Source of the DNA: Shigella phage SHSML-45
Sequence record: KX130863
Reading direction: 5' to 3' (one strand)
Length of the DNA: 64,000 nt
Shown piece after piece: positions 5,663-52,418 of the stretch; positions within the stretch are counted from its first letter, which is position 1, and each line of letters starts with the position of its first letter. The translations under genes were made by a program, and so were the position numbers. Under the pieces are notes generated by a model. The model was not told where the DNA came from. It made no database searches and saw nothing but the letters and a program-made list of their open reading frames with translations.

Positions 5663-6273
5663 AAACTTTCCCGTAAATTTAATGAGATGCCGGAATATGT
5701 TCCGTTATTATTTAATGTAGATCCGAAAGCATCACCATTCATGAGTTTTGTTCTAAATAGTATCCCATTAAATACTGGTTTTTCAGCTCCAGTAGTAGTT
5801 ACAAATAAATCAGGATATACGTTAATAGACCATGAATTACCAGATCTATTAAATGATGTTATTTTATAAACTTTTGGGTGATTGGATAGTTTAAATAAAT
5901 CACCTGGTTTAGGGATACCAGTAAGAACACCTTTTGTATCCATAGTAATATTGGAGCCCTTTTGTCCTGCGGGTATATTTACTAAGTTAGTATTACCCCT
6001 AACCCTAAAAGCCTCATACTGAGGTAATATAACATCAATGTAGCCTCCTGTCCTTTTGTACTCTAGAATAAAAGCATCTAGAACACTATATTCATCTGGA
6101 AATAGTTCTGGGTAGGAAATATTTATACCCCAGTATTGAGCGGATACCTTAACTTCGTTAACTTTACCATTAGGTAACTCATCACGAATTACTGGGTCAT
6201 TATCAATCAGGTTAACACTTTCGAATCCTAATCCTGAAAGTTCTGGATTCGTGTATGGGTCTGGTAGTCTCAT
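5659..6273 (-). CDS. distal tail protein pb9-like (Dit, 204 aa)
   Basis: 204-aa ORF immediately downstream of the tape measure gene, the canonical Dit position; size matches T5 pb9. Confidence 0.6.
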   Translation of the reverse strand: MRLPDPYTNPELSGLGFESVNLIDNDPVIRDELPNGKVNEVKVSAQYWGINISYPELFPDEYSVLDAFILEYKRTGGYIDVILPQYEAFRVRGNTNLVNIPAGQKGSNITMDTKGVLTGIPKPGDLFKLSNHPKVYKITSFNRSGNSWSINVYPDLFVTTTGAEKPVFNGILFRTKLMNGDAFGSTLNNNGTYSGISLNLRESL

Positions 6274-6337
6274 AGTTAATTTCTCCTCTTAATAACAATA
6301 TTATAATAGGATTGGAAAATTTTATCAAGAAATTTTT

Positions 6338-6375
6338 ATTTTTCCATAAAGAAAAGGAGGACATAAAGTCCTCCT
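6338..6375 (-). terminator. rho-independent terminator after the tape measure gene
   Basis: Hairpin AGGAGGA-CATAAAG-TCCTCCT (6355-6375) followed on the minus strand by a U-rich tract. Confidence 0.6.
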
Positions 6376-6381
6376 CCAGTA

Positions 6382-9300
6382 TTAAGAATTACCAAGTGAT
6401 TTCAGGGTGGTTCCATTCTCATTAAGAGCCTGTTCCACGGCATCTCTTAAAGCAGTGCTGTTATTCGATGCAAAATCTCTAAAGCTAGCAGCATCCATTG
6501 TGCTAATATTCAGAATGATTGGTCTTCCAGAGGTAGTCTTTGATCCATCGGAAAGCTGATCATTAGGTGTAGCTTTCATAGGAACCATAGGAGTAATTAC
6601 CTCGGTACCGTGCTCACCCATTTGATAACTAACTCCAGGGTACATCATACCGCCCTCAGCACGCGGAACAAATGAGTTGGCATTACCAATACCTTTATCA
6701 CCGCGTAGGTAGGATAGTTCTCCTGAACTAGCTTGCATAGATACATCAACATTTTTCTGTCGCTCACCTAGAGTTAAGTACTGAGTAGTATCTGCCCCAG
6801 AATCCGCAATAGAAGACATGCCAGATGCAGAAGATGCTTGAGCAAGAGCTAGGGCACCTGCCAAACCTGCTGCCACCATTAAAGGAATAGAGAACGGGTA
6901 TGGTACAGCTGTTGCTGCTTGCATTACTGCTACTGCAGTTTGGATGATGATCTGCTTCTTAGCTGCGTCTTGTTGAATCTTCAGCTTTTCAGCTTCCAAC
7001 TTCTTCAACTTAGCTTTAGATGCTTCAGATTTACCATCTCGTTTCTGTTCTGCTGCAATAGCCTGATCAATCGCACTAACTTGTTGGCTAGTACTATATT
7101 GAATCATCGAGGCTACAGTCTGCATACCTGCTGCGATCGTGGAAGTAGTATCTAGAGATCCCTGAGAGAACTGAATCATAGCATTAGTTAAGTTACCCAT
7201 ACTTTGTGCTACTGCAGTTGCTTCAGAATTTAGCTCAGATAGCTTAGAGATTGCCTGATCATAAGAAGCCATTCTATTTCCCATATCAGCAAAATCTTTG
7301 TCTTCCCCGGATAGACCAGTTGTAGGAGTATAAGTAGCTCCAACAGAAGATCCAACAGAAGCTTGCATCTCCGCATTTCTCTGTGCCCTTAAACCTGCTA
7401 GTTGTGCCCTAGTTTCAGCTATCTTTTTATTATATTCCGCTTGTGCTGCAGCATTACCTAATGTTTTCTGCTTTAAGTCTTCATATAATTTTAGCTGTTC
7501 CTGTAAGCGCTCCGCATTTCCCATTAATGGTTTAGTAGTAAATTGTCTTTGCTGTTCTTCCTCTCTACCAGCAGCCATTGAAGCAATCTGATCTTGGCGG
7601 AATTTCCAGATTTCACGTTCAATTTGGGCTTGAGCACGTCTAGACTGTTCCGCCTCTTTCTGTTTATCAGCTTGTTTTGTATACCATTCGTACTTCTCTT
7701 TTTCAACGGTCAATTCAAGATTTAACTGTGCTAGACGATACTGAGTATCTGTCATAGTACGGTTATTTAAGAGAGCTATCTCACGATCTACACCCAGGAT
7801 TTTATCTGTATAATCCTTAACCTTCTTCTGGGCCTCCATACCCTGATTAGTAAGCTTAAGTTTCTCCAGCTGAATTTTTTCAATTTCTTTCTCAACAGCT
7901 TTATTTCCCTGGTTTGTTTGAAGAACACGGCGTAAAGCAGCTTCTTGCTCTTCTAACTGTTGGAGTTCTAAACGCCTACCGGCTTCCTGTGCTTTTTCTT
8001 TATCCTTAGTTTGGTTATATACATCAGCTATCTTCTGTTGAACTGCTAACTGGTTCTTAGTCTCATTACCAGTTAGTTTAACGTACTCAGATAAGGCCTG
8101 AGACGCAGTTTTCATTTCGGACAGAGTGTTGTAGCCTAGATTAAGATTTTTAACGTACTCATCAGCACTCTTACCAGTACCTAGAGATAGAGATTCTATG
8201 TTTTTTATAGCATCTGCTAAAGTAGCACTAGTTTTAGCAGCAGTATCTGTATTCTGAGCAACGTTCTGTATATCATTAGCTAAGTCACTAGCAGTTTTCT
8301 TAGTCTGATTGTACGCTTTCTGCTGCTCAGTTAGTCCTTTTAATACAGTAGAGTTAAAATCGTATACAGCATCAGGATCAGTAGTATCTCTCTGTAGATT
8401 AATTTGCTTCTGAAACTCTGGACTAGCCTTTGCAGCAGCGGCTCCAGCAGCTTGATACGCTGATTTCCAAGCATTGAGATTCTCTGTAGAATCCTCTACT
8501 TCCTTACCAAGTCTAGTTACTTGTAGACCCATAGCTGCAGTTTCTGCTACAAATTGCTTATTGGCCTCCGAAGCACCTGCTGCTGCAAGACCAACAGGAA
8601 TACCTTCACCAACTTGACGTATAGCTAATTTTGTATAGAAATCTGCTTGTTCCATTCGTTTATCAAACTCAGATTTTAGCTTATTACGCTTATCAAGAGA
8701 TTCCTTATACATATCTAGAGCTTTATTATAGCCTTCTTCAGAAGCAGCTAAACTTAAAGCAACAGCACCAACGTTGGTAGGGTCTATCTGTCTATTAGTT
8801 TTTTCTTGAGCTCTAGCTGCTTCAGCAGATACAGAAGCCTGAGAAGTATAAAATACTGTGTTGATAGCATCAATTACTGGCCCTAAGTATTTAGCAGCAG
8901 CCTGCTGAATCTTTCTCAGTGCGGCATCAGCATTAGCGGCAAATTGCTCCCACGGAGTTGCACGTAAAACTTCATCTAAGTAACCAAAACGTTTAGTAGA
9001 CTCTGCTATAACAGCATTAGCATACGCCTGCTGTTTCTGGAAAGTAGTAAGACTATTAACGTTATAAGTTATACCCGTATTAGCAGCATTCAACTGTTTA
9101 ACATAGTCAGCATACGCGTCATTAAGACGGATAGTAACACCAAGTTCATCCAGAAGTTCGATTTCTTGTTTAGATACACCTTTGATTACACGGTTAAGTG
9201 CATCAGTCATATCTACACCAAGAACAGCAGCAGCACGACGAGCTACTAGACCAAATTTATTAAGTTGTTCAGCATCAAAACCGTATGCAGAAGCAGAGGA

Positions 9301-17158: not shown

Positions 17159-17653
17159 TTAGCCTCCAGGAACAGTAGGATTAACTGTCACAGCACATGT
17201 AGCAGAGTCCTTGCTTACTTGCTTACTATCTGTTACAGTTACTTTATAGGCTCCAGAATCCTCCGTAGCTGCTGCAGGCTTAGTATAGGTAGCTCCTGAA
17301 GCACCAGGAATAGGAGAACCATCTTTAGTCCATGTATAAGTATATGGACCAGTACCACCAGTTGCAGTAACAGAAAGTGTTAATGCTGCTCCCTCTTCAA
17401 CTGACATGCTCGCAGTTAAATCTTTAGAAAGAGTTAAGGGTGGAGCCGGTGGAGCAGGAGGAACTGCTTTACCATAAGCCTCTACAAATTTCTTCCATAC
17501 TTTACGGTTAGTATGCGCAGATGAAAGCCCTAGTTCTCTACGCAGAAAAGCATAGCTAGGAACATATTTATGCGCAGCAACCGTAGCAAAGAAGATATGA
17601 GATTCTGGCAGTTTTTCACCAAAAATGGTCTTTAGACCATTATAATCAATCAT
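17159..17653 (-). CDS. capsid decoration protein pb10-like (164 aa) with Ig-like domain
   Basis: 164 aa; C-terminal half (LTLSVTATGGTGPYTYTWTKDGSPIPGASGATYTKPAAATEDSGAYKVTVTD) resembles an Ig-like domain; located between portal and protease genes. Confidence 0.6.
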   Translation of the reverse strand: MIDYNGLKTIFGEKLPESHIFFATVAAHKYVPSYAFLRRELGLSSAHTNRKVWKKFVEAYGKAVPPAPPAPPLTLSKDLTASMSVEEGAALTLSVTATGGTGPYTYTWTKDGSPIPGASGATYTKPAAATEDSGAYKVTVTDSKQVSKDSATCAVTVNPTVPGG

Positions 17654-18867
17654 TCTTTATCTCCCTCGGTGGAACCTTGAGGTCTACCACCTTCTTGACC
17701 AGATACACCTGTTGCAGAACCAGCAACGTTAGCAGGAATACGAATCCTATCCATCTGCTCATCATCTAAAGGTTCAAGGTTCAGCTCTAAACGAGCTTCG
17801 TTACCAGTCATAATACCATTATTAACCAATGAGGTTAAATGTTTAGCCTCAGCTTCTTTATCTGGTGTTAATGCAGCTACCTCCTTAGTATTAGGGGTAA
17901 TCTTATAACCAAAAAAGAAAGTAAGAGAACTAGTCAGTTTGTTCAGCATAGGAATGATAGTCATATAATAGAACAATTCGATGTTTGGTCGAATATTCGC
18001 ATTATTACCACCATCAAGTAGTACTTGCGGAACTCCAAAGGCTAGACAAATAGATTTATTAAATCCTTCGATGTCTTCCTTAAAGTCTAGATCTTTAAAA
18101 GAGGATATTTGGGAGTACGGTTTAGCTTTCATACCACCATCTAGAATCAGGACAGAAGACTGACCCGTACTAGGATTATAATCGAGTTGTAATTCTTCTT
18201 GTTTACGCTCACGCAATTTCTTGTTCAGGATTTCATCCGTCTCAAGAATAAGACCAATCACGGTTCCGTTATCGAGGAATTTCTCTTTAAAGTTAAGCAT
18301 CTTAGAACGCTTCTCAAGAGAATCAATAACAGTAGCAACACGAGATTGTCCAGAAATTTGAGAGTTTGTGCCACACACGTAACTGTTATCCTTTATAAAG
18401 ATAATCTCATCTACGCGATAGTCTATCTGATTATTAAATGTAAATTTTTTGATAAACTTATTGGCATCTGCCTCGACCTGCATAAGAGCAGCCGGGACAT
18501 GGTAAAGCGATGTGCCATCCCAATAGATGTATGCACAACCTTCAAAAAGTAGGTCAGTGACTACAAGTCTACGGAATGTGCTTATATCCATGAATGGATT
18601 AGGTCGTACATTTAAGAGAGTGTCTAGAGTCTTTGTTTTGACGCCATTAGCGTACGTAACAATATTATATTTATCTCCGACAGTATAAGAACACTCCGCC
18701 GCACTATCTATAACCATATTAGCAGTTCTATTGAGAATCTCAATTTTACTGTAGGCTTGTCCAGTGGTAAAAGGCTTACGGTTAGTGCGATGACTAACTG
18801 GTTCCATGTCTCTTATAATACGTTGACCCGGATTTAACTTTTCAGTAATCCAGCTTTTTAAACCCAT
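17650..18867 (-). CDS. portal protein (405 aa)
   Basis: Position between terminase and head genes; size close to the T5 portal. Confidence 0.7.
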   Translation of the reverse strand: MGLKSWITEKLNPGQRIIRDMEPVSHRTNRKPFTTGQAYSKIEILNRTANMVIDSAAECSYTVGDKYNIVTYANGVKTKTLDTLLNVRPNPFMDISTFRRLVVTDLLFEGCAYIYWDGTSLYHVPAALMQVEADANKFIKKFTFNNQIDYRVDEIIFIKDNSYVCGTNSQISGQSRVATVIDSLEKRSKMLNFKEKFLDNGTVIGLILETDEILNKKLRERKQEELQLDYNPSTGQSSVLILDGGMKAKPYSQISSFKDLDFKEDIEGFNKSICLAFGVPQVLLDGGNNANIRPNIELFYYMTIIPMLNKLTSSLTFFFGYKITPNTKEVAALTPDKEAEAKHLTSLVNNGIMTGNEARLELNLEPLDDEQMDRIRIPANVAGSATGVSGQEGGRPQGSTEGDKE

Positions 18868-19319
18868 TATAAGAACCTTGCGAATCCTGATTTTATTTCA
18901 GTCTTGACTTGTGTCTTTTCTTGAGGATTCTGTAATTTGTCTTTCTGCTTTTGAACCCACACTTTTTGCTTATTAGCAGAAAATAAAGGAGGTTCTTTCG
19001 TGTAAACCTTATGTAATAGTTGGTGATGGTGCTGGCACAATGTTACCACGTCCCTAACTAACTCATGCTCATATTTCTTGTAGAATGCTTCCCTATTTGA
19101 AAGGACGATATTCTCATCAGTGAAATCCAGCTGGAGTTCTTTAGCAAATTTTTTTATTAGCTGAGATATAGTATGATAGTGATGAAGTTCTAGGTCTTCA
19201 CTACTACCACATATAGCACAGCAACCATCCTTACTATACCTAGATTTTATACCATCCCTCATTATGGAAATGGCATCACGTTTGTACTTAGTATTAGTGG
19301 CCATACTCCTCCAATCCAA
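18867..19319 (-). CDS. HNH endonuclease (150 aa)
   Basis: Cys/His motif CAICGSSEDLELHHYH ... CQHHHQLLH typical of the HNH fold; sits between terminase and portal genes. Confidence 0.7.
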   Translation of the reverse strand: MDWRSMATNTKYKRDAISIMRDGIKSRYSKDGCCAICGSSEDLELHHYHTISQLIKKFAKELQLDFTDENIVLSNREAFYKKYEHELVRDVVTLCQHHHQLLHKVYTKEPPLFSANKQKVWVQKQKDKLQNPQEKTQVKTEIKSGFARFL

Positions 19320-19968
19320 AGCTATTTAGAAAGATTACTATATCCTCAGGAGCAACATTAAAAAATTCCGTGCTTCCTGTAAAATTAGAAAACCCACAGT
19401 TTTTATTATAATATTCTCTGTGAACTTCCTTTTCTAAATCTAAAGCAGTCTCTCTATCTGGCAGATGATACATGGTGAACAAGTACAGGTCAGAAAATCC
19501 AGATTCTCTTTTAACTTCATTCAACCGTTTCTCGGGATATAAGCTTATGCCTACTTTAGTACCGCTAGAGAAGGACATGATATAGAGGAATCCACCATTC
19601 TCCCACTTAAGAGAACAATAAGGACATCTCTTACCTTGAGTCAATCCATCTAAGGTAATGAAACAGTCATGCCCATTATTGCAGCGTAGATGTAGTTTTG
19701 TTTTAGCATTAGTATAGCTGCTTAACAGAGTATACCCTATATTAGATATTCTGTTACTAACTTCATCTAACGATATTGTATTATTGGAGCAGTGTGGACA
19801 ACCTCTCCTCATATGGAGTATAGAATGTGGTGTTGCTTCCCAAACGTGTGCTCTCTGGCATTTAAATACTGTTTTTGTACGTTGGTTTACATATTCACCG
19901 ACAATTTGGATTCCACGATCAGCTAATCTAATATTTATATCTTTTATTGTTAGCTTTTGTCGACCCAT
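19294..19968 (-). CDS. putative homing-endonuclease-like protein, T5orf172/GIY-YIG-related, with zinc ribbons (224 aa)
   Basis: Two CPxC zinc-ribbon motifs (CPHCSNN, CPYCSLK), GFLYIM...KVGIS core, C-terminal GSTEFFNV shared with a paralog at 50118-50816. Confidence 0.5.
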   Translation of the reverse strand: MGRQKLTIKDINIRLADRGIQIVGEYVNQRTKTVFKCQRAHVWEATPHSILHMRRGCPHCSNNTISLDEVSNRISNIGYTLLSSYTNAKTKLHLRCNNGHDCFITLDGLTQGKRCPYCSLKWENGGFLYIMSFSSGTKVGISLYPEKRLNEVKRESGFSDLYLFTMYHLPDRETALDLEKEVHREYYNKNCGFSNFTGSTEFFNVAPEDIVIFLNSFGLEEYGH

Positions 19969-20139: not shown

Positions 20140-21456
20140 TTATTTACCACGGGAAATAGAGTAAATTCCATAGCGGAGCGCATCACAAAGGTGAGAGTTA
20201 GCATCATGACGTGGTTTTTCACGTGATAATTTCTCTTCACCCTCTTGGAAATCCCACTTATAGTTCTGCAATGCATGGATTAATGAGGAACATGAAGCAT
20301 CTACAATAATCTTGCCCTGCTGGAATAGTGCTTGCAAGCATGCTAGACCATCTAGGACAGATTTTTTAGCTGGAGCTGATGCAATTTCATGCTCATAAGC
20401 TAAGTCCTGTCGGAACTGGGCTGCTGCAGAGTCAACAAAAATACGATCAACTTTATAACGATCTATACAGTGCTGAATATAAGCAGCATGCTGAGCTGTA
20501 GTTTTCTCCGCCTGCTGGTACTCTTCTAGTACATAGTAAGTATCCGTGTCGTAATGATATTTAATAGTAAGAACTGCTGTAGGATCACGATAACCAACGT
20601 CAATACCAAGCAACGTTTCAAATGCTTCATCATCTTTAAAGAAGTGACGCATACCTTTGAGATCTTTAACATGATCTATAGCATTAAAGGTATCAAATAT
20701 CTGTCCTTCGAATACAGAGAAGTCAGCCTCGTATTCTTGGCGGAAGTAGTTTTTACTAACTGTACGACGTGCTTCCTCAATGTCATTCAGATCAGCACGT
20801 GGGTTATCACGATATGTACCATGAATAGATACCCAGTTAGGTAGTGTCTCGTTAAATCCTTTCTCATAAAACTCTTTGAACCAGTTACCACCACGAGGGG
20901 TAGAAATGAAAAGAGCCTTAGAGTTTGGTTTATCTAGGGTTGGACGAAGCTGAATATCGAATGCAGCACCACCAACGTCAGAGATTGCGGCTTCATCAAA
21001 GATGATGAAATCATAGGAACGACCAACTGCGGAGTCAGCCTGAGCAGCAGAAGCTAATTTGAACAGAGAACCGTTGGCCAGCTCAATTTCTTTATCTTTG
21101 GCATTCTCACGCTCAGTCTGCAATCCATATTTTTTAATTAGACCACGAATCTGTGACCAACCGATGTTTGCTAGTGAGTAGTTAGGTGCAACTACCAGCA
21201 CTTTTACATTAGGTTCTAGCAGTTTTAGGAACCCAAGTGTATATGCGATAAATGACTTACCTACACGACGTGATACACAAGCAGTTACGAAACGATGTCT
21301 AGGGTCTTCTAGGGCATTAATAATTGCTATTTGAGGACCATTAGGTGTAATACCTTCTTGTGCTAGTATTCCCGAAACAGGTAGACGAAAGAAACGCTTA
21401 TCTATTCCGAAATCAATAACATCTACTGTGTTAACATAGGGTCTTGACACTTCCAT
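20140..21456 (-). CDS. terminase large subunit (438 aa)
   Basis: Walker A-like VSRRVGKSF and Walker B-like FIIFDEAA motifs; nuclease-like C-terminal half; 438 aa as T5 TerL. Confidence 0.85.
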   Translation of the reverse strand: MEVSRPYVNTVDVIDFGIDKRFFRLPVSGILAQEGITPNGPQIAIINALEDPRHRFVTACVSRRVGKSFIAYTLGFLKLLEPNVKVLVVAPNYSLANIGWSQIRGLIKKYGLQTERENAKDKEIELANGSLFKLASAAQADSAVGRSYDFIIFDEAAISDVGGAAFDIQLRPTLDKPNSKALFISTPRGGNWFKEFYEKGFNETLPNWVSIHGTYRDNPRADLNDIEEARRTVSKNYFRQEYEADFSVFEGQIFDTFNAIDHVKDLKGMRHFFKDDEAFETLLGIDVGYRDPTAVLTIKYHYDTDTYYVLEEYQQAEKTTAQHAAYIQHCIDRYKVDRIFVDSAAAQFRQDLAYEHEIASAPAKKSVLDGLACLQALFQQGKIIVDASCSSLIHALQNYKWDFQEGEEKLSREKPRHDANSHLCDALRYGIYSISRGK

Positions 21457-45682: not shown

Positions 45683-46222
45683 TTACTTGTTAAGCTCTTC
45701 TAAATCTGGTATATATCCAAGAAACTCCTCAATTAAAGCGTACTCCCCAGCAATCTCCTGTCTAGACTTATTTGCTAAGTCTACTGCCAGAGCTAAGTCT
45801 TCATAATTGAAAGTTCCTTTCATACGTTTTCGGCCTGTTTCATCCGTAATTTGAACTCTCCATTTCTGCCTATCTTTAGCCCACATAACATTTGCATATC
45901 CAGATTTGGACTTTCTATGCTTCTTATTACGACAATTTTGTGGTTTAGATGCAGAACGTAAGTTTTTCCATCGGTTATTTTGTGGATTTCTATCTATGTG
46001 ATCCACAAATTCAGGTATATATCCTTCCATATATAGGAAGGCCCATCTATGGGCTCCCTGCCTCTCCCCTTCCACCATTATCATTATGTAATCATTGTTG
46101 TATAGAGTTCCAGCTTCCATTCCCCTCTTTACATACTGATTATTACCATCTATCTTCCAGGTAAATATCCCGGTTTCTGGGTTATATTCTAGTAATTCTT
46201 TTAGTCTTTCTTGAGTAATCAC
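45683..46222 (-). CDS. HNH homing endonuclease (179 aa)
   Basis: Motif AHRWAFLYMEGYIPEFVDHIDRNPQNNRWKNLRSAS, close paralog of 24943-25482. Confidence 0.75.
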   Translation of the reverse strand: MITQERLKELLEYNPETGIFTWKIDGNNQYVKRGMEAGTLYNNDYIMIMVEGERQGAHRWAFLYMEGYIPEFVDHIDRNPQNNRWKNLRSASKPQNCRNKKHRKSKSGYANVMWAKDRQKWRVQITDETGRKRMKGTFNYEDLALAVDLANKSRQEIAGEYALIEEFLGYIPDLEELNK

Positions 46223-47190: not shown

Positions 47191-47604
47191 TTAAATCAAT
47201 TCTATATGTGGGCCATCAAAAGTACCACGTTGGATTTCATCCTTATAACTTCCGTTCTGGTTCCAATCACCACCCCATCTAATCTTTACCCCTAGCTCTT
47301 CTGCTGCCTTAAAGAAGGCATCTGCCACTAATTTGAATGATTCTAAATCATTCCAATCAATCTTCCCATTTTTAAGAGGAGCAAAGTCAACGGCCAGCCC
47401 TTGTACGTGTTTTGACTTGCTCGGGTCTTTTAAAAACGAGGTTCCATTCTTAATATTTTGGGCGCTTTGTTCTAAGGAACGTAATCCTTCTGTAATCGTA
47501 AAATCATATGGGCTTAATTCTAAAGCTCTATGAGTTACTCTTACTAAATCTGGATGAACACCCTTTAATCTATCTAAACTTCTTTTACCAAATTTAAAAC
47601 TCAT
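47191..47604 (-). CDS. lys: endolysin, L-alanyl-D-glutamate peptidase type (137 aa)
   Basis: 137 aa as T5 endolysin; metal-binding peptidase motifs (HVQGLAVDF, GGDWN, DGPHIEL); adjacent to a holin-like gene. Confidence 0.75.
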   Translation of the reverse strand: MSFKFGKRSLDRLKGVHPDLVRVTHRALELSPYDFTITEGLRSLEQSAQNIKNGTSFLKDPSKSKHVQGLAVDFAPLKNGKIDWNDLESFKLVADAFFKAAEELGVKIRWGGDWNQNGSYKDEIQRGTFDGPHIELI

Positions 47605-48257
47605 ATTGATCTACCTAAAGATCTCTGTTGTGGGGAACAGAGCTTTGTTAAATACTCGTTAAATTTCTCAGAATCGGCTGCATCTACAGGATTATCTTTC
47701 CAAGCAATACCAATATATCCAGCATAGATATTGTTTAGATTGAAATAGGGACAAGTGTATATGTAATTAAAAGTAACGTTCTTAAACGCAGGTATATTTA
47801 ACCCCATGTATTTATTTACTTTTACACTTAAATCCGATGCGTAGTTAAAGCCTTCCAAGTGACGTCTATATAGCTCAGACGTTTTATTTACCGCTTTATC
47901 GGCCAAGTCAGCCCTATCTAATTGCGCATTGCTTTCCCATGCAATAATGTTAGAATAATCATTAATGGCATCGGGTTTATACTTGACGACAAAAACAGCA
48001 TCCGCACCCGTTTGAGAAAAGAGTACCATGCTCTTTTCTCTAGCTACATTAGGAAAGTTATCTATCCTTTGAGTTTGAACATCCTGTAGAACCGCAGACG
48101 TGGAGAAAGTCTTTAAGAATGACATCACCTCGCTAGTATTACTAACAAATAAGAAAATAATGACAGCAACTAAGATAGTTAGCAGACGTTTAAGAAGCGA
48201 TGCTGGATCTTTCGCTTCTTGGAGCAGTACCGTTAATAATTGTAAGAACTTTTCCAA
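47601..48257 (-). CDS. holin-like membrane protein (218 aa)
   Basis: N-terminal hydrophobic helix (LLTILVAVIIFLFV); directly upstream of and overlapping the endolysin gene; size matches T5 holin. Confidence 0.55.
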   Translation of the reverse strand: MEKFLQLLTVLLQEAKDPASLLKRLLTILVAVIIFLFVSNTSEVMSFLKTFSTSAVLQDVQTQRIDNFPNVAREKSMVLFSQTGADAVFVVKYKPDAINDYSNIIAWESNAQLDRADLADKAVNKTSELYRRHLEGFNYASDLSVKVNKYMGLNIPAFKNVTFNYIYTCPYFNLNNIYAGYIGIAWKDNPVDAADSEKFNEYLTKLCSPQQRSLGRSI

Positions 48258-48412
48258 TTGTAACCTCCTCTAACCAGTACCATTATACTAATTTTGGAGG
48301 AAAATTACAATGTGTTTTTAAAGATCACTTCTGGAGCACAAAATTATGTCGTTGTCAAGAAGAATTTTAGATAAAAGAAAAGCCAGGGTACTTAACCCTG
48401 GCTTAAAATTAC

Positions 48413-49012
48413 TTACTCTTCGTTGTGCTCCTCGGATTGAGGTAACTGAGCTTTATTATATTGCTCAGATCGATATTTTGCCAAGATTTCAGTACGCTTA
48501 TGAATTTCCTTGCTATCTAGATAGATATTTTTGTTGTCTTTTACCATCTCGTCGATTTCATCTATTGAGAAGAACGGATAGTAGACATCTAGCATCATAT
48601 CTTCTACAAACTTGTTGTAAGATTCATAGGCTTTCTTGATTTCTTGACCTTTCTCACAGAACCCGCCAGAGAACGTGTGCCCCATTAGCGTAGCATGTGG
48701 ATGTACTACCCATCCATGACAAGATAGGAAAATTGTGCAGTAAGCAGAAGCACTAGGACCAATCAGGTGTCCTATAACTGTTCCACGGCAATTAGCAATT
48801 AAGTTAGATAACTGTGCAGCAGTATCAACATAACCACCTGGACCATTAATCATCAGATTAATTTCGTCGTCCTCATTTGCCTGCATAAGTACCATTGATA
48901 AATCACGGTATTCATCCGGTGGGCCTAATTCTTCATCAAAGAAAAAGGTATACTCGTTAGATTGGCGAATGGAGTGAAACAGGTTAGTCTTTTCTTCTTT
49001 TTTATTAGTCAT
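48413..49012 (-). CDS. hypothetical protein, possibly ClpP-like peptidase fold (199 aa)
   Basis: Segment MINGPGGYVDTAAQLSNLIANCRGTVIGHLIGPSASAY resembles the ClpP core; weak, unverified. Confidence 0.35.
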   Translation of the reverse strand: MTNKKEEKTNLFHSIRQSNEYTFFFDEELGPPDEYRDLSMVLMQANEDDEINLMINGPGGYVDTAAQLSNLIANCRGTVIGHLIGPSASAYCTIFLSCHGWVVHPHATLMGHTFSGGFCEKGQEIKKAYESYNKFVEDMMLDVYYPFFSIDEIDEMVKDNKNIYLDSKEIHKRTEILAKYRSEQYNKAQLPQSEEHNEE

Positions 49013-49024
49013 AGCGATCCTTGA

Positions 49025-49777
49025 TTATCCAACTAGTGGTTCTAGCTCTAAGTCACAGAAGTTATAAACTTCTAGTTTAAGGTTATTGATACCATCGAAT
49101 TTATTAACTAATTCGTGAGTAATATATTTTGCAGGAATACCACTTTCAGATGGATGATCTGATTTAATAGTGAACTTCTGCTCAGCGGGTACTACATTTA
49201 CTATCAAAGAATCCATATCTAAATGGTTTGTTTCTCTGAGTAACTCTCCTTCATTGGGGAATCTAACATCTGTTATTACGGCGACATCTGGGTCGTCTTT
49301 AGCGATGGATTGCTCCAGAATTATGAGCCAAATGCGTTCATGCACCAGCTGCCTTCCTAGCTCTGTCCCTACGAGCTGTAACATTTTTCTCGGAGAAATA
49401 AATAAACTATAAAGACCATCTTCTTTACTCTCTGAGATAAGTTGTTGAGGATTAAGATATTTTTCCTCAAAAATAGGCCAAACGTACGAGAAGTCTTCAA
49501 ACTTATCGATACCATACTTAACCCACACATCTCTAGCTCGCTCCAACTGAGATTGTGTGACCGTAAACCATTGGTCAATTTCTTTTCCCCTGCGCTCTCC
49601 TAGAAACTCTGGAGTTACCCCGAGGATTACGGATGCAAGCTCATAAACTGGTTTAGCAAAACTGTAACGACGGGGTAAACACGTTGGATACGTGTCATTA
49701 CACCAATCGATAATTAATTTTGCAACGGTATCTTTTCCTGCACCTGCCTCGCCATGTAAACCTACTAATACTGACAT
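49025..49777 (-). CDS. deoxynucleoside monophosphate kinase-like P-loop protein (250 aa)
   Basis: N-terminal Walker A GEAGAGKDT; 250 aa as T5 dNMP kinase. Confidence 0.55.
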   Translation of the reverse strand: MSVLVGLHGEAGAGKDTVAKLIIDWCNDTYPTCLPRRYSFAKPVYELASVILGVTPEFLGERRGKEIDQWFTVTQSQLERARDVWVKYGIDKFEDFSYVWPIFEEKYLNPQQLISESKEDGLYSLFISPRKMLQLVGTELGRQLVHERIWLIILEQSIAKDDPDVAVITDVRFPNEGELLRETNHLDMDSLIVNVVPAEQKFTIKSDHPSESGIPAKYITHELVNKFDGINNLKLEVYNFCDLELEPLVG

Positions 49778-50130
49778 TAATCTTTCCTATTGTTAATGGG
49801 TGGATAGTAAATTAAGCAACGTTTTTCTTGTAAATCTTGGCGATAAAAGCAAACCATACTAGTCAATCGTGAGATATATGAATATTCTGCCTCGCGGCAT
49901 TTTGCCAACATATTCCAATCTTTATATGGTACGACTACTACTACGCCATCCTCCCCATTTGTAGCTAATTTCTTTTCGAATTTGAAATCAAAGCTACAAG
50001 GTTGAAGTCCTTTAGGCCAGTCCACATGAGCTGTTGGTAGTTCATGGGTAGGTTCTGGCTTTATTTCTTGTGCACAGCCTGTGATTGTGATTGCGGCTGC
50101 GAGCAGTATTCCAAGTTTTATTTTGTGCAT
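49777..50130 (-). CDS. lipoprotein (117 aa)
   Basis: Signal peptide with lipobox (ITGC); Pro-rich segment after the lipobox; several Cys. Confidence 0.55.
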   Translation of the reverse strand: MHKIKLGILLAAAITITGCAQEIKPEPTHELPTAHVDWPKGLQPCSFDFKFEKKLATNGEDGVVVVVPYKDWNMLAKCREAEYSYISRLTSMVCFYRQDLQEKRCLIYYPPINNRKD

Positions 50131-50816
50131 CTACGCACCTCATAATGTGTTTCTATGTATTGTTCCACTTCTACTGGAGAAACATTGAAAAACTCTGTAC
50201 TTCCACTAAACCCCCCATAACTGCATCTTTTATTTTTATAGACACTATGTAGGTCAGCTTCGATCTTAGCTGTTTCTTCCTTAGAACCCTTGCCACAAAT
50301 ATAGTAAGATGATACTCTCAGATCTTTAAAACCACTACAAGACTTAACTTCTAGAAGTCTTTTCTGCACACTCTTACTTATACCTATTTTTATGCCTTTA
50401 TCTGAAACAAATATGTATAAAAATCCTTGTGTATCCCAAGCTGTTTTGGCACAATTTGGGCACCCACTATGGTGTAAAACGTGGTTAGTGGTTGTCTCCC
50501 ACTGATGGGAACATGTATTACATAAAAACTTTAGCTTAGAAGTAGAATTAGTATATTCACTTAGTAATACGATTTTTCTAGGACTGAGGAGTGAGTTAAT
50601 CCTGTCTTTGGTTAACTTTTCATTGCCTGCACATTTTGGGCATCCTCTACCTTTATTTCTGACATTTGTAGGGGCTGTTAACCATGTATTAGAGCATATA
50701 AGACACTTAAATTGTGTCTTTGTCTTATTATGTTCATATTCCCCTACTAATCTTACTGTCCTACCTTGAGCTTCTAAATCTTTATTAAAGATTTCTTTAT
50801 TTATTTTTACGCTCAT
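50118..50816 (-). CDS. putative homing-endonuclease-like protein, T5orf172/GIY-YIG-related, with zinc ribbons (232 aa)
   Basis: CPKC and CPNC zinc-ribbon motifs, GFLYIF...KIGIS core, C-terminal GSTEFFNV; paralog of 19294-19968. Confidence 0.5.
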   Translation of the reverse strand: MSVKINKEIFNKDLEAQGRTVRLVGEYEHNKTKTQFKCLICSNTWLTAPTNVRNKGRGCPKCAGNEKLTKDRINSLLSPRKIVLLSEYTNSTSKLKFLCNTCSHQWETTTNHVLHHSGCPNCAKTAWDTQGFLYIFVSDKGIKIGISKSVQKRLLEVKSCSGFKDLRVSSYYICGKGSKEETAKIEADLHSVYKNKRCSYGGFSGSTEFFNVSPVEVEQYIETHYEVRRCTK

Positions 50817-51222
50817 CCCTACAGTACTCCAAGCTACCAGAAAGACATGCTAATCTTTCCTCGAATTCCTTACTCTGCTTTTTAGCAATTAATGTAACCA
50901 ATCCAGGCTTTGCAGCTATAATATCTTGACGACTAAGTGCTTTATCAAGCTGATTAATTTTCTTGTCTAGATCTGCTTGCGAAACATTATTCATTGTGAA
51001 ATACTGATTCATTCGAGTCTCACGAAGTTCACTCTCAGCCCTCACATTATTAAGGGAAGTTTCTAGAGAAGAGATCTTTTTAGTAGCTACTGCAAGATCA
51101 CCTGCTAGAGTCTCAACCTTATTAACTAAGTGATAAGCACCGAATCCGATGCCTATCGCCAAACCAGCTCCCAGGATATACCACTTACCTTGCCATAGAG
51201 AACTAATAAAGTTTTTTATCAT
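50797..51222 (-). CDS. membrane-anchored coiled-coil protein, spanin-like (141 aa)
   Basis: N-terminal TM helix (WYILGAGLAIGIGFGAY) followed by a long charged helical region. Confidence 0.4.
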   Translation of the reverse strand: MIKNFISSLWQGKWYILGAGLAIGIGFGAYHLVNKVETLAGDLAVATKKISSLETSLNNVRAESELRETRMNQYFTMNNVSQADLDKKINQLDKALSRQDIIAAKPGLVTLIAKKQSKEFEERLACLSGSLEYCRDERKNK

Positions 51223-51899
51223 CTTTTCATATTCCTGAATGACGTAACCGTATCAAATCCATGTGCTGCTAGGCGGTCTTTATCAGAAATGGTAATAATA
51301 TCTGGTTCTCCTGTTCCAAGTACGCCCCAGATATATTGTTCAATTCTCTGGTGTAATCGGTATAAGTTGCTTTCAACTTCCTGCCACGGAATACCTGATA
51401 GATGTAGGCGTGGGTTAGTTATAACCTTGAAATACTTATTACTATCTTTATCATTTGGAACTACTGAGTCTAGAACCGCTAAAGGTACTCTTAACTCAGC
51501 TAAGGCTTCTTCAGCTTTAGAGGTAACTTCTTCTTGCCAGGATAGAATAGATTCTTTTGGCTTTCCTCTATTTATATCTAGTAGAGAAAATCCCGTTGAC
51601 CATCCATTCTCTTTCAAAACTTCTAATGCTTTGTCTAGGTTGAAAGTTTTTACTTGAGTATCCAATACATCAATATGGTACATCCAGTAAATCTCTCCTG
51701 CTAGGAAAAACGGTAGAATTTTAAAGTAGCCTTTCTTTTCACCAACACGAGCAATCATACGTTCTTGCATAATCATGTAGTTGCCATCATCTGGAGCCTT
51801 TATTGTTAGCTCTTCAGTTTTACGCTCCCAAGCACGATCGGGGTCAAACAAGCTGTTCTGCAAATCGTATACATCTGCCCATTTACTAATAATTCTCAT
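51219..51899 (-). CDS. hypothetical protein (226 aa)
   Basis: ORF start-stop coupled to neighbours. Confidence 0.45.
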   Translation of the reverse strand: MRIISKWADVYDLQNSLFDPDRAWERKTEELTIKAPDDGNYMIMQERMIARVGEKKGYFKILPFFLAGEIYWMYHIDVLDTQVKTFNLDKALEVLKENGWSTGFSLLDINRGKPKESILSWQEEVTSKAEEALAELRVPLAVLDSVVPNDKDSNKYFKVITNPRLHLSGIPWQEVESNLYRLHQRIEQYIWGVLGTGEPDIITISDKDRLAAHGFDTVTSFRNMKR

Positions 51900-51902
51900 A
51901 GT

Positions 51903-52418
51903 TTATCCTCTAAATCCCTCGTAAATAGCAAATTCACCAAAATACTCGAATCTTAACTCATTAGCAGTTTCTACTGCTTCTTTAAGATCACTAAAGATTC
52001 CGCCATAGATTGTTTTTCTATCTTTAGTAACAGAAACTTGCCACTTATTAGCTCTTTTATTCCAACTTACATTTTTGTAACCTGAAGTATTATTAGAGTA
52101 CTTTGACTTATTGGCATTATTCTGTGATTCAGTAGACTCCCTCAAGTTATCCCAAACATTATTTGTTGGGTTAATATCTTTATGGTCTATGTTTTCTGGT
52201 ATATAACCTTTCTTATATAGAAAGGCTAACTGATGAGCATAGTAAGGTTTTCCATCAATTCTTATAGAAATATACCCATTGGATTTTCCACCAGCTAAAC
52301 ATCCAGCATGTCTGGCATTCCATGCATTATCTAACTCTTTTCTGAACTTCCACCTAAAATTTCCAATATGTTCATCATACTCCAGAATACTTTTTAGGTA
52401 TTCTTGTGTTAATTCCAT
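51903..52418 (-). CDS. HNH homing endonuclease (171 aa)
   Basis: Motif AHQLAFLYKKGYIPENIDHKDINPTNNVWDNLRES. Confidence 0.7.
   Translation of the reverse strand: MELTQEYLKSILEYDEHIGNFRWKFRKELDNAWNARHAGCLAGGKSNGYISIRIDGKPYYAHQLAFLYKKGYIPENIDHKDINPTNNVWDNLRESTESQNNANKSKYSNNTSGYKNVSWNKRANKWQVSVTKDRKTIYGGIFSDLKEAVETANELRFEYFGEFAIYEGFRG

What the first reader, a model, noticed from the sequence alone, without database searches (positions are those of the whole stretch)
49777..51222. Spanin-like gene pair apparently split by a homing-endonuclease-like gene
A TM-plus-coiled-coil protein (50797-51222) and a lipoprotein with lipobox (49777-50130) have the features of inner- and outer-membrane spanin subunits. 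They are separated by a T5orf172/GIY-YIG-like gene (50118-50816) that overlaps both. The pair lies about 2.5 kb from the holin and endolysin genes. This could be a lysis module interrupted by a selfish element, or the lipoprotein may have another role.
Basis: inference. Interest (0 to 1): 0.45.

Follow-up and report, generated by a model that had tools for sequence, protein, structure and literature searches.

The report
Phage spanin genes split by homing endonuclease
In this T5-like Salmonella phage (Shivani), the two genes that break the host's outer membrane at lysis, which normally overlap, are separated by a selfish endonuclease gene; this is real but was already published in 2015 and 2018.

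Summary
The window is Salmonella phage Shivani (T5-like, 99.9% identical to KP143763). On the minus strand lie an i-spanin (51222..50797, 141 aa), a 232-aa gene (50816..50118) with two zinc fingers and a T5orf172/GIY-YIG nuclease domain, and an o-spanin lipoprotein (50130..49777, 117 aa). The middle gene overlaps its neighbours by 20 and 13 nt.

All 28 endonuclease-free close relatives I examined have a 147-aa i-spanin that overlaps the o-spanin by 70 nt. More distant Demerecviridae also overlap (34 and 88 nt). The split state is therefore derived.

The inserted cassette is flanked by an imperfect 16-nt duplication of the overlap. It supplies a new i-spanin tail after the last conserved Cys, and a new ribosome-binding site and start codon for the o-spanin.

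Among six carrier phages the endonuclease gene has synonymous divergence of 0-0.05, against 0.06-0.66 in the adjacent spanin sequence. Its dN/dS is about 0.1. Both point to a recently mobile and functional element.

GenBank annotates both spanins, the 2015 genome announcement notes the intervening gene, and Kongari et al. [quoted passage not shown] Interest is low; only the junction and mobility details are added here.

The parts
50797..51222 (-). i-spanin gene (CPT_Shivani47), 141 aa: N-terminal membrane anchor (residues 14-33, about 51124..51183), helical periplasmic domain, conserved Cys126 and Cys134, and a 7-residue tail (RDERKNK) supplied by the inserted cassette.
   Evidence: ORF; PHROG 739 Rz-like spanin, E 7e-38; GenBank label i-spanin; hydropathy and Cys positions; family alignment with invariant C126, G129 and C134 and a variable tail.
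50118..50816 (-). Free-standing homing-endonuclease gene (CPT_Shivani46), 232 aa. It has two Cys4 zinc-finger DNA-binding modules (residues about 21-63 and 90-124; Cys38/41/59/62 and Cys99/102/119/122) and a C-terminal T5orf172/GIY-YIG nuclease domain (residues 131-222).
49777..50130 (-). o-spanin gene (CPT_Shivani45), 117 aa: signal peptide with lipobox ITG|C (50074..50085), Ala at +2, a proline-rich start of the mature part, and four conserved periplasmic Cys. The first four codons (MHKI) are specific to the cassette.
   Evidence: ORF; PHROG 812, E 2e-29; GenBank label o-spanin; lipobox, Cys and Pro counts; invariant G18, C19, C45, C78, C94 and C105.
50821..50836 (-). Left copy of the duplicated overlap segment (TAGCTTGGAGTACTGT). 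It now encodes only i-spanin residues S130-C134 and carries a TAG in the former o-spanin frame. It contains the GGAG that lies 10 nt before the endonuclease ATG.
   Evidence: Junction comparison of 9 occupied and 5 empty alleles; sequence read directly.
50103..50118 (-). Right copy of the duplicated overlap segment (AAACTTGGAATACTGC), identical to the T5-type empty site. It now encodes only o-spanin residues K5-L10.
50128..50141 (-). New translation start for the o-spanin, carried inside the 3' end of the endonuclease gene: Shine-Dalgarno GAGGTG (50136..50141) and ATG (50128..50130).
   Evidence: Sequence; conserved in all nine occupied alleles; the RBS is annotated in the GenBank record.
49987..51068 (-). 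1082-nt tract with no mismatch to phage H8. It covers the last 272 nt of the i-spanin gene, the whole endonuclease gene and the first 144 nt of the o-spanin gene, and is flanked by 7-15% divergence. I read it as a gene-conversion tract centred on the endonuclease gene.
   Evidence: Mismatch positions in the alignment of occupied alleles; identity profile.
48380..48404 (-). Terminator-like hairpin after the Clp-like protease gene. It is the first such site on this strand downstream of the spanin genes, so HNH, the 226-aa gene, i-spanin, endonuclease, o-spanin, dnk and clp appear to form one transcription unit separate from holin and endolysin.
   Evidence: Pattern scan. T5 has an annotated terminator and promoter at the equivalent places. 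Inference only.

Best explanation
The window is Salmonella phage Shivani, a T5-like phage. The 141-aa inner-membrane protein and the 117-aa lipoprotein are its two-component spanin. This is the complex that bridges the periplasm and disrupts the outer membrane as the last step of lysis. In the family's usual state the i-spanin gene runs 70 nt into the o-spanin gene.

In Shivani and a small minority of relatives, a free-standing T5orf172 (GIY-YIG superfamily) homing-endonuclease gene sits in that overlap. The insertion duplicated the start of the overlap. At least 16 nt of the duplication are still recognisable.

- The left copy keeps the i-spanin reading frame up to its last conserved cysteine. 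A short new tail and stop codon then follow, overlapping the endonuclease start codon.
- The right copy keeps the o-spanin signal peptide. A new ribosome-binding site and ATG are embedded in the end of the endonuclease gene.

All three genes are packed head to tail in one operon, so the spanin pair very probably still works.

The endonuclease presumably binds the empty, dual-coding junction of endonuclease-free phages during mixed infection and cuts nearby. It is then copied in by repair, together with some flanking spanin sequence.

Shown here: the gene identities, the fold, the ancestral overlap, the junction anatomy, purifying selection on the endonuclease, and its discordant, much younger history relative to its flanks. 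Inferred: the actual cleavage site, homing in vivo, and spanin function in lysis.
For: Identity: 99.9% to KP143763, whose record labels o-spanin and i-spanin.

Family matches:
- PHROG 739 and 812 Rz-like spanins, and PHROG 681 endonuclease.
- Pfam CapR, DUF4379, MUG113 and T5orf172, all above cut-off.

Ancestral overlap:
- 28 of 28 endonuclease-free Markadamsvirinae loci (27 distinct sequences) have a 147-aa i-spanin and a 70-nt overlap.
- Sugarland overlaps by 88 nt and My1 by 34 nt.
- Only 18 of about 450-540 matching records carry the gene.

Junction: the architecture is the same in all nine occupied alleles, with the imperfect repeat, the new tail and the new SD plus ATG. A contig with an endonuclease only 57% identical has the gene at the same site. 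Its right copy still encodes an i-spanin-like remnant in the other frame.

Tolerance: the i-spanin tail after Cys134 and o-spanin residues 2-4 are the only unconserved positions near the junction.

Mobility:
- There are zero mismatches over 1082 nt between Shivani and H8, against 7-15% outside that tract.
- Endonuclease dS is 0-0.05, against 0.06-0.66 in the i-spanin and 0-0.42 in the o-spanin (0 only for LmqsSP1 vs Sen_I1), among six carriers.
- The carriers sit on at least five different local haplotypes.

Functionality: dN/dS is 0.07-0.23.

Literature: the same conclusion appears in Kongari et al. 2018. T5orf172 genes with CapR-type zinc fingers are described as abundant homing endonucleases of T5-like phages in Barth et al. 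2023.
Against: - No cleavage or homing experiment exists for this protein, and its target site is unknown.
- The T5-family spanins have not, to my knowledge, been tested genetically. The local Pfam and NCBIfam copies have no model that hits them.
- The hydropathy of the i-spanin anchor is borderline (1.55 over 19 residues).
- The low divergence of the endonuclease gene relative to its flanks could in principle reflect ordinary recombination of a short segment rather than endonuclease-driven conversion.
- VAH1 carries a frameshifted copy, although that record has several other split genes.
Confidence: 0.85

Rival explanations
1. The separated arrangement with the endonuclease gene is ancestral. 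The overlapped arrangement of T5 and most relatives arose by deleting the endonuclease gene.
For: Kongari et al. 2018 left the direction open. The imperfect direct repeat flanking the cassette could mediate a precise deletion.
Against: - The overlap is universal in the endonuclease-free members sampled (28 of 28, always 70 nt) and also occurs in other Demerecviridae lineages with different lengths.
- The occupied state is rare and scattered over different haplotypes and two genera.
- The left repeat copy now carries a TAG in the o-spanin frame, so deletion between the repeats would give a dead o-spanin.
- The right copy in L038 retains an i-spanin-like remnant in the other frame, which only makes sense if an overlap came first.
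Confidence: 0.05
2. The middle gene is no longer a mobile endonuclease. It is a domesticated DNA-binding protein, like the satellite repressor CapR, retained because it regulates expression of phage or competitor genes.
For: - Strong purifying selection (dN/dS about 0.1) persists across lineages with dS up to about 2.
- The site is identical in very divergent phages.
- CapR-type zinc fingers are known to act as repressors, and I-TevI doubles as an autorepressor.
Against: - The nuclease domain is intact, with a GIY-YIG fold.
- The motif residues (LYI, KIG, Arg153, Glu208) are conserved in all seven aligned proteins that carry the domain.
- Distribution is sporadic, in under 5% of relatives.
- The gene's history is discordant and far younger than that of its flanks, which is the hallmark of ongoing horizontal spread.
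Confidence: 0.07
3. The lipoprotein is not an o-spanin but has another role, for example a receptor-blocking lipoprotein like T5 Llp. On this view the adjacency to the membrane protein is incidental.
For: No curated Pfam or NCBIfam model in the local copies hits it. The pair lies in an operon with dNMP kinase rather than with holin and endolysin.
Against: - It matches PHROG 812 at E 2e-29 and is 97% identical to T5.044, annotated as a PseT.2-like spanin.
- A homologue in L038 carries the precomputed Pfam hit Phage_T4_Spanin.
- It is invariably coupled, usually overlapped, with the i-spanin gene in every relative examined.
- It has four conserved periplasmic Cys and a proline-rich N-terminal region typical of o-spanins.
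- The genome paper states that Shivani lacks Llp, which is a different protein.
Confidence: 0.03

Closest known systems
T5-family two-component spanins, 'separated' variants of Shivani and phiR201 (Kongari et al. 2018, BMC Bioinformatics 19:326, Fig. 6d-f)
   Same: This is the same locus. [quoted passage not shown] It also notes that the i-spanin differs only at its extreme C-terminus and the o-spanin only in the first signal-peptide residues.
   Different: Nothing differs in kind. Added here are the direction of the event, the 16-nt imperfect duplication with the cassette-borne SD and ATG, the fold check, the dN/dS values, and the co-conversion signature across more carriers.
Lambda Rz/Rz1 and T4 PseT.3/PseT.2 spanins
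   Same: All share the two-part design: a type II inner-membrane protein with a helical periplasmic domain, plus a small outer-membrane lipoprotein with periplasmic Cys, encoded side by side. The T5 record notes similarity to T4 PseT.2 and PseT.3.
   Different: Lambda Rz1 is embedded entirely within Rz, and the T4 genes are naturally separate (my own knowledge of Summer et al. 2007). Here a normally overlapped pair has been pulled apart by a mobile gene. The pair is also not next to the holin and endolysin genes.
T5orf172 homing endonucleases with CapR-type zinc-finger DNA-binding modules (ICP1 and T5-like phages; Barth, Dunham and Seed 2023)
   Same: The domain plan is the same: tandem CapR/DUF4379 zinc fingers followed by a T5orf172 domain. 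The genes are free-standing, lie next to essential genes, and are enriched in T5-like phages.
   Different: That study does not mention spanins (0 occurrences). The nearest relatives outside the spanin site are below 60% identical, so this is a distinct, site-faithful lineage.
T4 free-standing GIY-YIG endonucleases (SegA-G) and the mobE-split nrdA of phage Aeh1
   Same: These are intergenic, promoterless endonuclease genes that spread by cutting the endonuclease-free allele and co-converting flanking markers. In Aeh1 such an insertion splits a coding region while function is retained (my own knowledge for the Seg details).
   Different: Seg proteins have the nuclease domain at the N-terminus and different DNA-binding domains. 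Here the inserted site is a two-frame overlap of two genes rather than a single gene or an intergenic spacer.

Membership tests
Two-component spanin (i-spanin / o-spanin) | The i-spanin is a type II inner-membrane protein with one N-terminal transmembrane segment and a largely helical, charged periplasmic domain. | tested here: met
   A hydrophobic segment lies at residues 14-33 (KD 1.55 over 19 residues, borderline). The periplasmic part is 108 aa and 32% charged. PHROG 739 matches at E 7e-38. The Sugarland homologue is annotated with an N-terminal TMD.
Two-component spanin (i-spanin / o-spanin) | The o-spanin is a small outer-membrane lipoprotein with a signal peptide, a lipobox Cys and no Asp at +2. 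| tested here: met
   The lipobox is ITG|C at residues 16-19, with Ala at +2 and a mature length of 99 aa. G18 and C19 are invariant in the family. PHROG 812 matches at E 2e-29.
Two-component spanin (i-spanin / o-spanin) | The two genes are tightly linked (embedded, overlapped or adjacent). | tested here: met
   They overlap by 70 nt in 28 of 28 endonuclease-free relatives, and by 34 and 88 nt in My1 and Sugarland. In Shivani they are 666 nt apart only because of the inserted gene.
Two-component spanin (i-spanin / o-spanin) | Conserved periplasmic cysteines are available for disulfide-linked complexes. | tested here: met
   i-spanin C126 and C134, and o-spanin C45, C78, C94 and C105, are invariant across seven divergent members. 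Whether disulfides actually form was not tested.
Two-component spanin (i-spanin / o-spanin) | The pair is required for outer-membrane disruption at lysis. | not testable with these tools
   This needs genetics: knockouts in Mg2+ medium, or complementation of lambda Rz/Rz1. No such experiment on T5-family spanins was found in the searchable literature.
GIY-YIG superfamily, T5orf172 subfamily nuclease | Profile match to T5orf172 or MUG113 above the curated threshold. | tested here: met
   T5orf172 scores 34.8 bits (cut-off 20) and MUG113 41.9 bits (cut-off 22.3), over residues 131-222.
GIY-YIG superfamily, T5orf172 subfamily nuclease | GIY-YIG alpha/beta fold. | tested here: met
GIY-YIG superfamily, T5orf172 subfamily nuclease | Catalytic motif residues are present (Tyr of the first motif, Arg, catalytic Glu). 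| tested here: inconclusive
   'GFLYI' (Y134), 'KIGIS', R153 and 'TEFF' (E208) are conserved in all seven aligned proteins that carry the domain. Assigning them to catalytic roles rests on analogy with the literature. They were not superposed on a solved active site.
Free-standing homing endonuclease gene | Sporadic presence or absence at one fixed site among close relatives. | tested here: met
   18 records carry it at 86% nucleotide identity or better, all at the spanin junction. This compares with 448-538 records that have the locus. The carriers include Tequintavirus and Epseptimavirus members and a distant contig.
Free-standing homing endonuclease gene | The gene's history is discordant with its flanks, with co-conversion tracts. 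| tested here: met
   A 1082-nt identical tract to H8 lies within flanks that are 7-15% diverged. Endonuclease dS is 0-0.05, against i-spanin dS of 0.06-0.66 and o-spanin dS of 0.10-0.42 in all but one pair.
Free-standing homing endonuclease gene | Site-specific cleavage of the endonuclease-free allele and super-Mendelian inheritance in mixed infection. | not testable with these tools
   This requires biochemistry and phage crosses.

The most novel reading that the evidence does not exclude
The endonuclease lineage may be specialised on the two-frame spanin overlap. That stretch is about 40% less variable than the sequence on either side, so it cannot easily mutate to escape.

Each invasion would resolve the overlap by carrying its own recoded copy of the shared segment, a new i-spanin tail, and a new o-spanin start. 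That would make the locus a natural experiment showing that the i-spanin residues beyond Cys134 and the overlap itself are dispensable. It would also be an example, together with the hegF-linked alternative i-spanin N-terminus, of homing cassettes that bring replacement gene ends with them.
Probability: 0.5. Interest if true: 0.3.

Novelty: already known. Interest (0 to 1): 0.15.

Why it matters
It matters little beyond housekeeping. It confirms that the lysis function of a therapeutic-cocktail phage is intact despite an inserted selfish gene. It also gives a tidy worked example of how a homing-endonuclease cassette can sit inside a two-frame gene overlap without destroying either gene.

The junction details could guide spanin truncation experiments: the tail after Cys134 is replaceable. 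They could also guide the choice of a substrate for testing T5orf172 endonuclease specificity. The central fact is already in the literature.

Tried and rejected
- Sequence search of the endonuclease and the i-spanin against solved structures gave only insignificant hits. The best was a DUF4379 zinc ribbon at E 0.33.
- The local Pfam and NCBIfam copies have no model for either spanin, even at E up to 10.
- The RNA fold around the endonuclease start shows no structure beyond shuffled controls (z = 0.0). There is therefore no evidence of the RBS-sequestering hairpin seen in some T4 endonuclease genes.
- The promoter scan found no more sites than chance and no internal terminator. An own promoter for the endonuclease gene is not supported.
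- The word-indexed protein search returned only 12 relatives, which made for a shallow alignment, although the model was still confident.
- I considered that the lipoprotein might be Llp-like and rejected this (see rival explanations).
- I considered deletion rather than insertion as the direction of the event and rejected it (see rival explanations).
- The VAH1 frameshift was not taken as evidence of decay, because that record has several other split genes.
Full report
**What is there.** The 4.1-kb stretch around the finding is 99.9% identical to Salmonella phage Shivani (KP143763 / NC_028754), a T5-like siphophage of the genus Tequintavirus. All genes in the region are on the minus strand. 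In the direction of transcription they are:

- an HNH-AP2 endonuclease gene (52418..51903);
- a conserved 226-aa gene (51899..51219);
- the 141-aa membrane protein (51222..50797);
- the 232-aa middle gene (50816..50118);
- the 117-aa lipoprotein (50130..49777);
- dNMP kinase (49777..49025);
- a Clp-like protease (49012..48413).

A terminator-like hairpin and a promoter-like site follow, and then holin (48257..47601) and endolysin (47604..47191). The middle gene overlaps its neighbours by 20 and 13 nt. The coordinates and features in the finding are therefore correct.

**Identity of the three proteins.**

- The membrane protein matches PHROG 739 'Rz-like spanin' (E 7e-38) and the lipoprotein PHROG 812 'Rz-like spanin' (E 2e-29). 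The Shivani GenBank record already calls them i-spanin and o-spanin.
- The i-spanin has a hydrophobic segment at residues 14-33, a charged 108-aa periplasmic part, and two Cys near the C-terminus.
- The o-spanin has lipobox ITG|C, Ala at +2, a proline-rich start of the mature chain, and four further Cys.
- Seven members were aligned, ranging from T5 to Klebsiella phage Sugarland, Pectobacterium phage My1 and a metagenomic contig. In all of them the i-spanin Cys126 and Cys134, the o-spanin lipobox, and its four periplasmic Cys are invariant.

**The normal state of the locus.** In T5, HildyBeyeler, vaffelhjerte and 25 endonuclease-free IMG/VR loci, the i-spanin is always 147 aa and runs 70 nt into the o-spanin gene. 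That is 28 endonuclease-free loci with 27 distinct sequences. Sugarland (88-nt overlap) and My1 (34-nt overlap) show that overlap is the rule across Demerecviridae.

The middle gene, at 86% nucleotide identity or better, occurs in only 18 records, some of them duplicates or fragments. This compares with 448 records that match the region and 538 that encode the i-spanin. Wherever it occurs it lies between the spanins. Carriers include:

- Tequintavirus members Shivani, H8, NR01, R2, LmqsSP1, Sen_I1, VAH1 and IrisVonRoten;
- the Epseptimavirus phiR2-01;
- a Logan contig with a 57%-identical copy at the same site.

The split arrangement is therefore derived, by insertion.

**Junction anatomy**.

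- Empty T5-type site: GCATGTTTAACTGGAAACTTGGAATACTGC|TCGCAGCC.
- Occupied site, left side: GCATGTCTTTCTGGTAGCTTGGAGTACTGT|AGGGATGAGCG...
- Occupied site, right side: ...GAGGTGCGTAGATGCACAAAATAAAACTTGGAATACTGC|TCGCAGCC.

A 16-nt piece of the overlap is thus present twice, at window 50836..50821 and 50118..50103, with 12 of 16 positions identical.

The left copy keeps the i-spanin frame through S-L-E-Y-C134. Seven new codons (RDERKNK) and a stop then follow, overlapping the endonuclease ATG. This copy now has a TAG in the old o-spanin frame.

The right copy keeps the o-spanin codons K5-L10. It is preceded by four new codons (MHKI), an ATG and a GAGGTG Shine-Dalgarno, all lying inside the last codons of the endonuclease gene.

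The positions that changed, the i-spanin tail after Cys134 and o-spanin residues 2-4, are exactly those that vary across the family. In the distant contig L038 the right copy still encodes an i-spanin-like remnant (C-I-L-V-G-N-L-E-S-C) in the other frame. That remnant is only expected if an overlap existed before the insertion.

In endonuclease-free alleles the overlap is the less variable part of the locus, with pi 0.057 against 0.098 on either side.

**Is the inserted gene alive and mobile?**

- Its dN/dS is 0.07-0.23 between lineages with dS from 0.05 to above 2, so the protein is under purifying selection.
- Within the Shivani-type group (Shivani, H8, NR01, LmqsSP1, Sen_I1, R2) its synonymous divergence is 0-0.05. 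The i-spanin beside it has dS 0.06-0.66. The o-spanin has 0.10-0.42 in all but one pair, LmqsSP1 vs Sen_I1, where it is 0.
- Shivani and H8 are identical over 1082 nt centred on the gene (window 49987..51068) and differ by 7-15% immediately outside.
- The carriers sit on different local backgrounds. These include two very different alleles of the upstream 226-aa gene, presence or absence of the hegF-like HNH gene, and two genera.

This is the pattern expected of a homing endonuclease gene that has recently spread with short co-conversion tracts. Cleavage itself was not and cannot be tested here.

**Expression context.** No terminator-like site on the minus strand lies between about 52500 and 48404. 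No promoter-like excess over chance was found. The RNA around the endonuclease start is no more structured than shuffled sequence. The three genes therefore appear to be translated from one message together with dnk and clp, as in T5, where the promoter and terminator are annotated at the equivalent places. This is inference.

**Comparison with what is known.** The Shivani genome announcement (2015) states that its spanin layout differs from T5 because a conserved hypothetical gene separates the two lysis proteins.

Kongari et al. 2018 make three relevant points:

- The i-spanins differ only at the extreme C-terminus and the o-spanins only in the first residues of the signal sequence.
- They left the direction of the change open.

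Barth et al. 2023 describe T5orf172 endonucleases with CapR-type zinc fingers as abundant in T5-like phages and clustered near essential genes.

The finding is therefore already known. What this analysis adds is the polarity (insertion), the duplicated and recoded junction, the cassette-borne translation signals, the fold confirmation, and quantitative evidence of recent lateral spread.

**Verdict.** Novelty: already known. Interest is low (0.15).

Noticed in passing
window 19294..19968 (-): A second T5orf172 endonuclease gene (224 aa) has the same zinc-finger plus nuclease plan and is 36% identical to the spanin-junction one. It lies between the large terminase gene (20140..21456) and an HNH ORF (18867..19319) followed by a 405-aa ORF (17650..18867) that I take, unverified, to be the portal gene. 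Two different endonuclease genes therefore sit together between packaging genes.
   Followed up: partly
window 51903..52418 (-) and 45683..46222 (-): Two HNH_3/AP2-type endonuclease genes (171 and 179 aa) flank the lysis region. The first lies just upstream of the 226-aa gene that precedes the i-spanin. The region is a hotspot for such genes.
   Followed up: partly
L003 (T5) 6246..6743; also L007, L034, L035, L037 and six IMG/VR loci: In 37 T5-like loci, a 496-nt hegF-like HNH gene inserted immediately upstream of the i-spanin (11 loci) is perfectly associated with a different i-spanin N-terminus. With the insertion the N-terminus reads M[RW]K[WG]FVDLVW[ND]NKM. Without it the N-terminus reads MIKNFISSLWQGKW or LIQKLLSGIW. 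This upstream cassette also seems to bring its own version of the neighbouring gene end. Shivani lacks it.
   Followed up: partly
L007 (phage H8) 3356..3892: H8 has a further 178-aa HNH-AP2 gene between the o-spanin and dnk. There, each spanin gene is bracketed by endonuclease genes: hegF, i-spanin, T5orf172 gene, o-spanin, HNH, dnk.
   Followed up: no
window 51219..51899 (-) and homologues in L003-L037: The conserved 226-aa gene upstream of the i-spanin (PHROG 4243, unknown function) occurs as two very different allele classes among otherwise close phages. Identity to Shivani is about 55% in one class and 88-100% in the other. The classes are distributed independently of the spanin-junction endonuclease.
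   Followed up: no
L036 (phage VAH1) 2501..3200: The VAH1 copy of the endonuclease gene is 700 nt rather than 699 and is annotated as a shorter ORF. The same record also has split dnk, truncated Clp and truncated holin genes, so sequencing error is as likely as decay.
   Followed up: no
and one search hit lists: Short records labelled 'Listeria phage LM 4-11-1' and 'Campylobacter phage C13/D1' carry T5-like spanin or endonuclease sequence at high identity. These look like mislabelled or contaminating T5-like fragments in the public collection.
   Followed up: no
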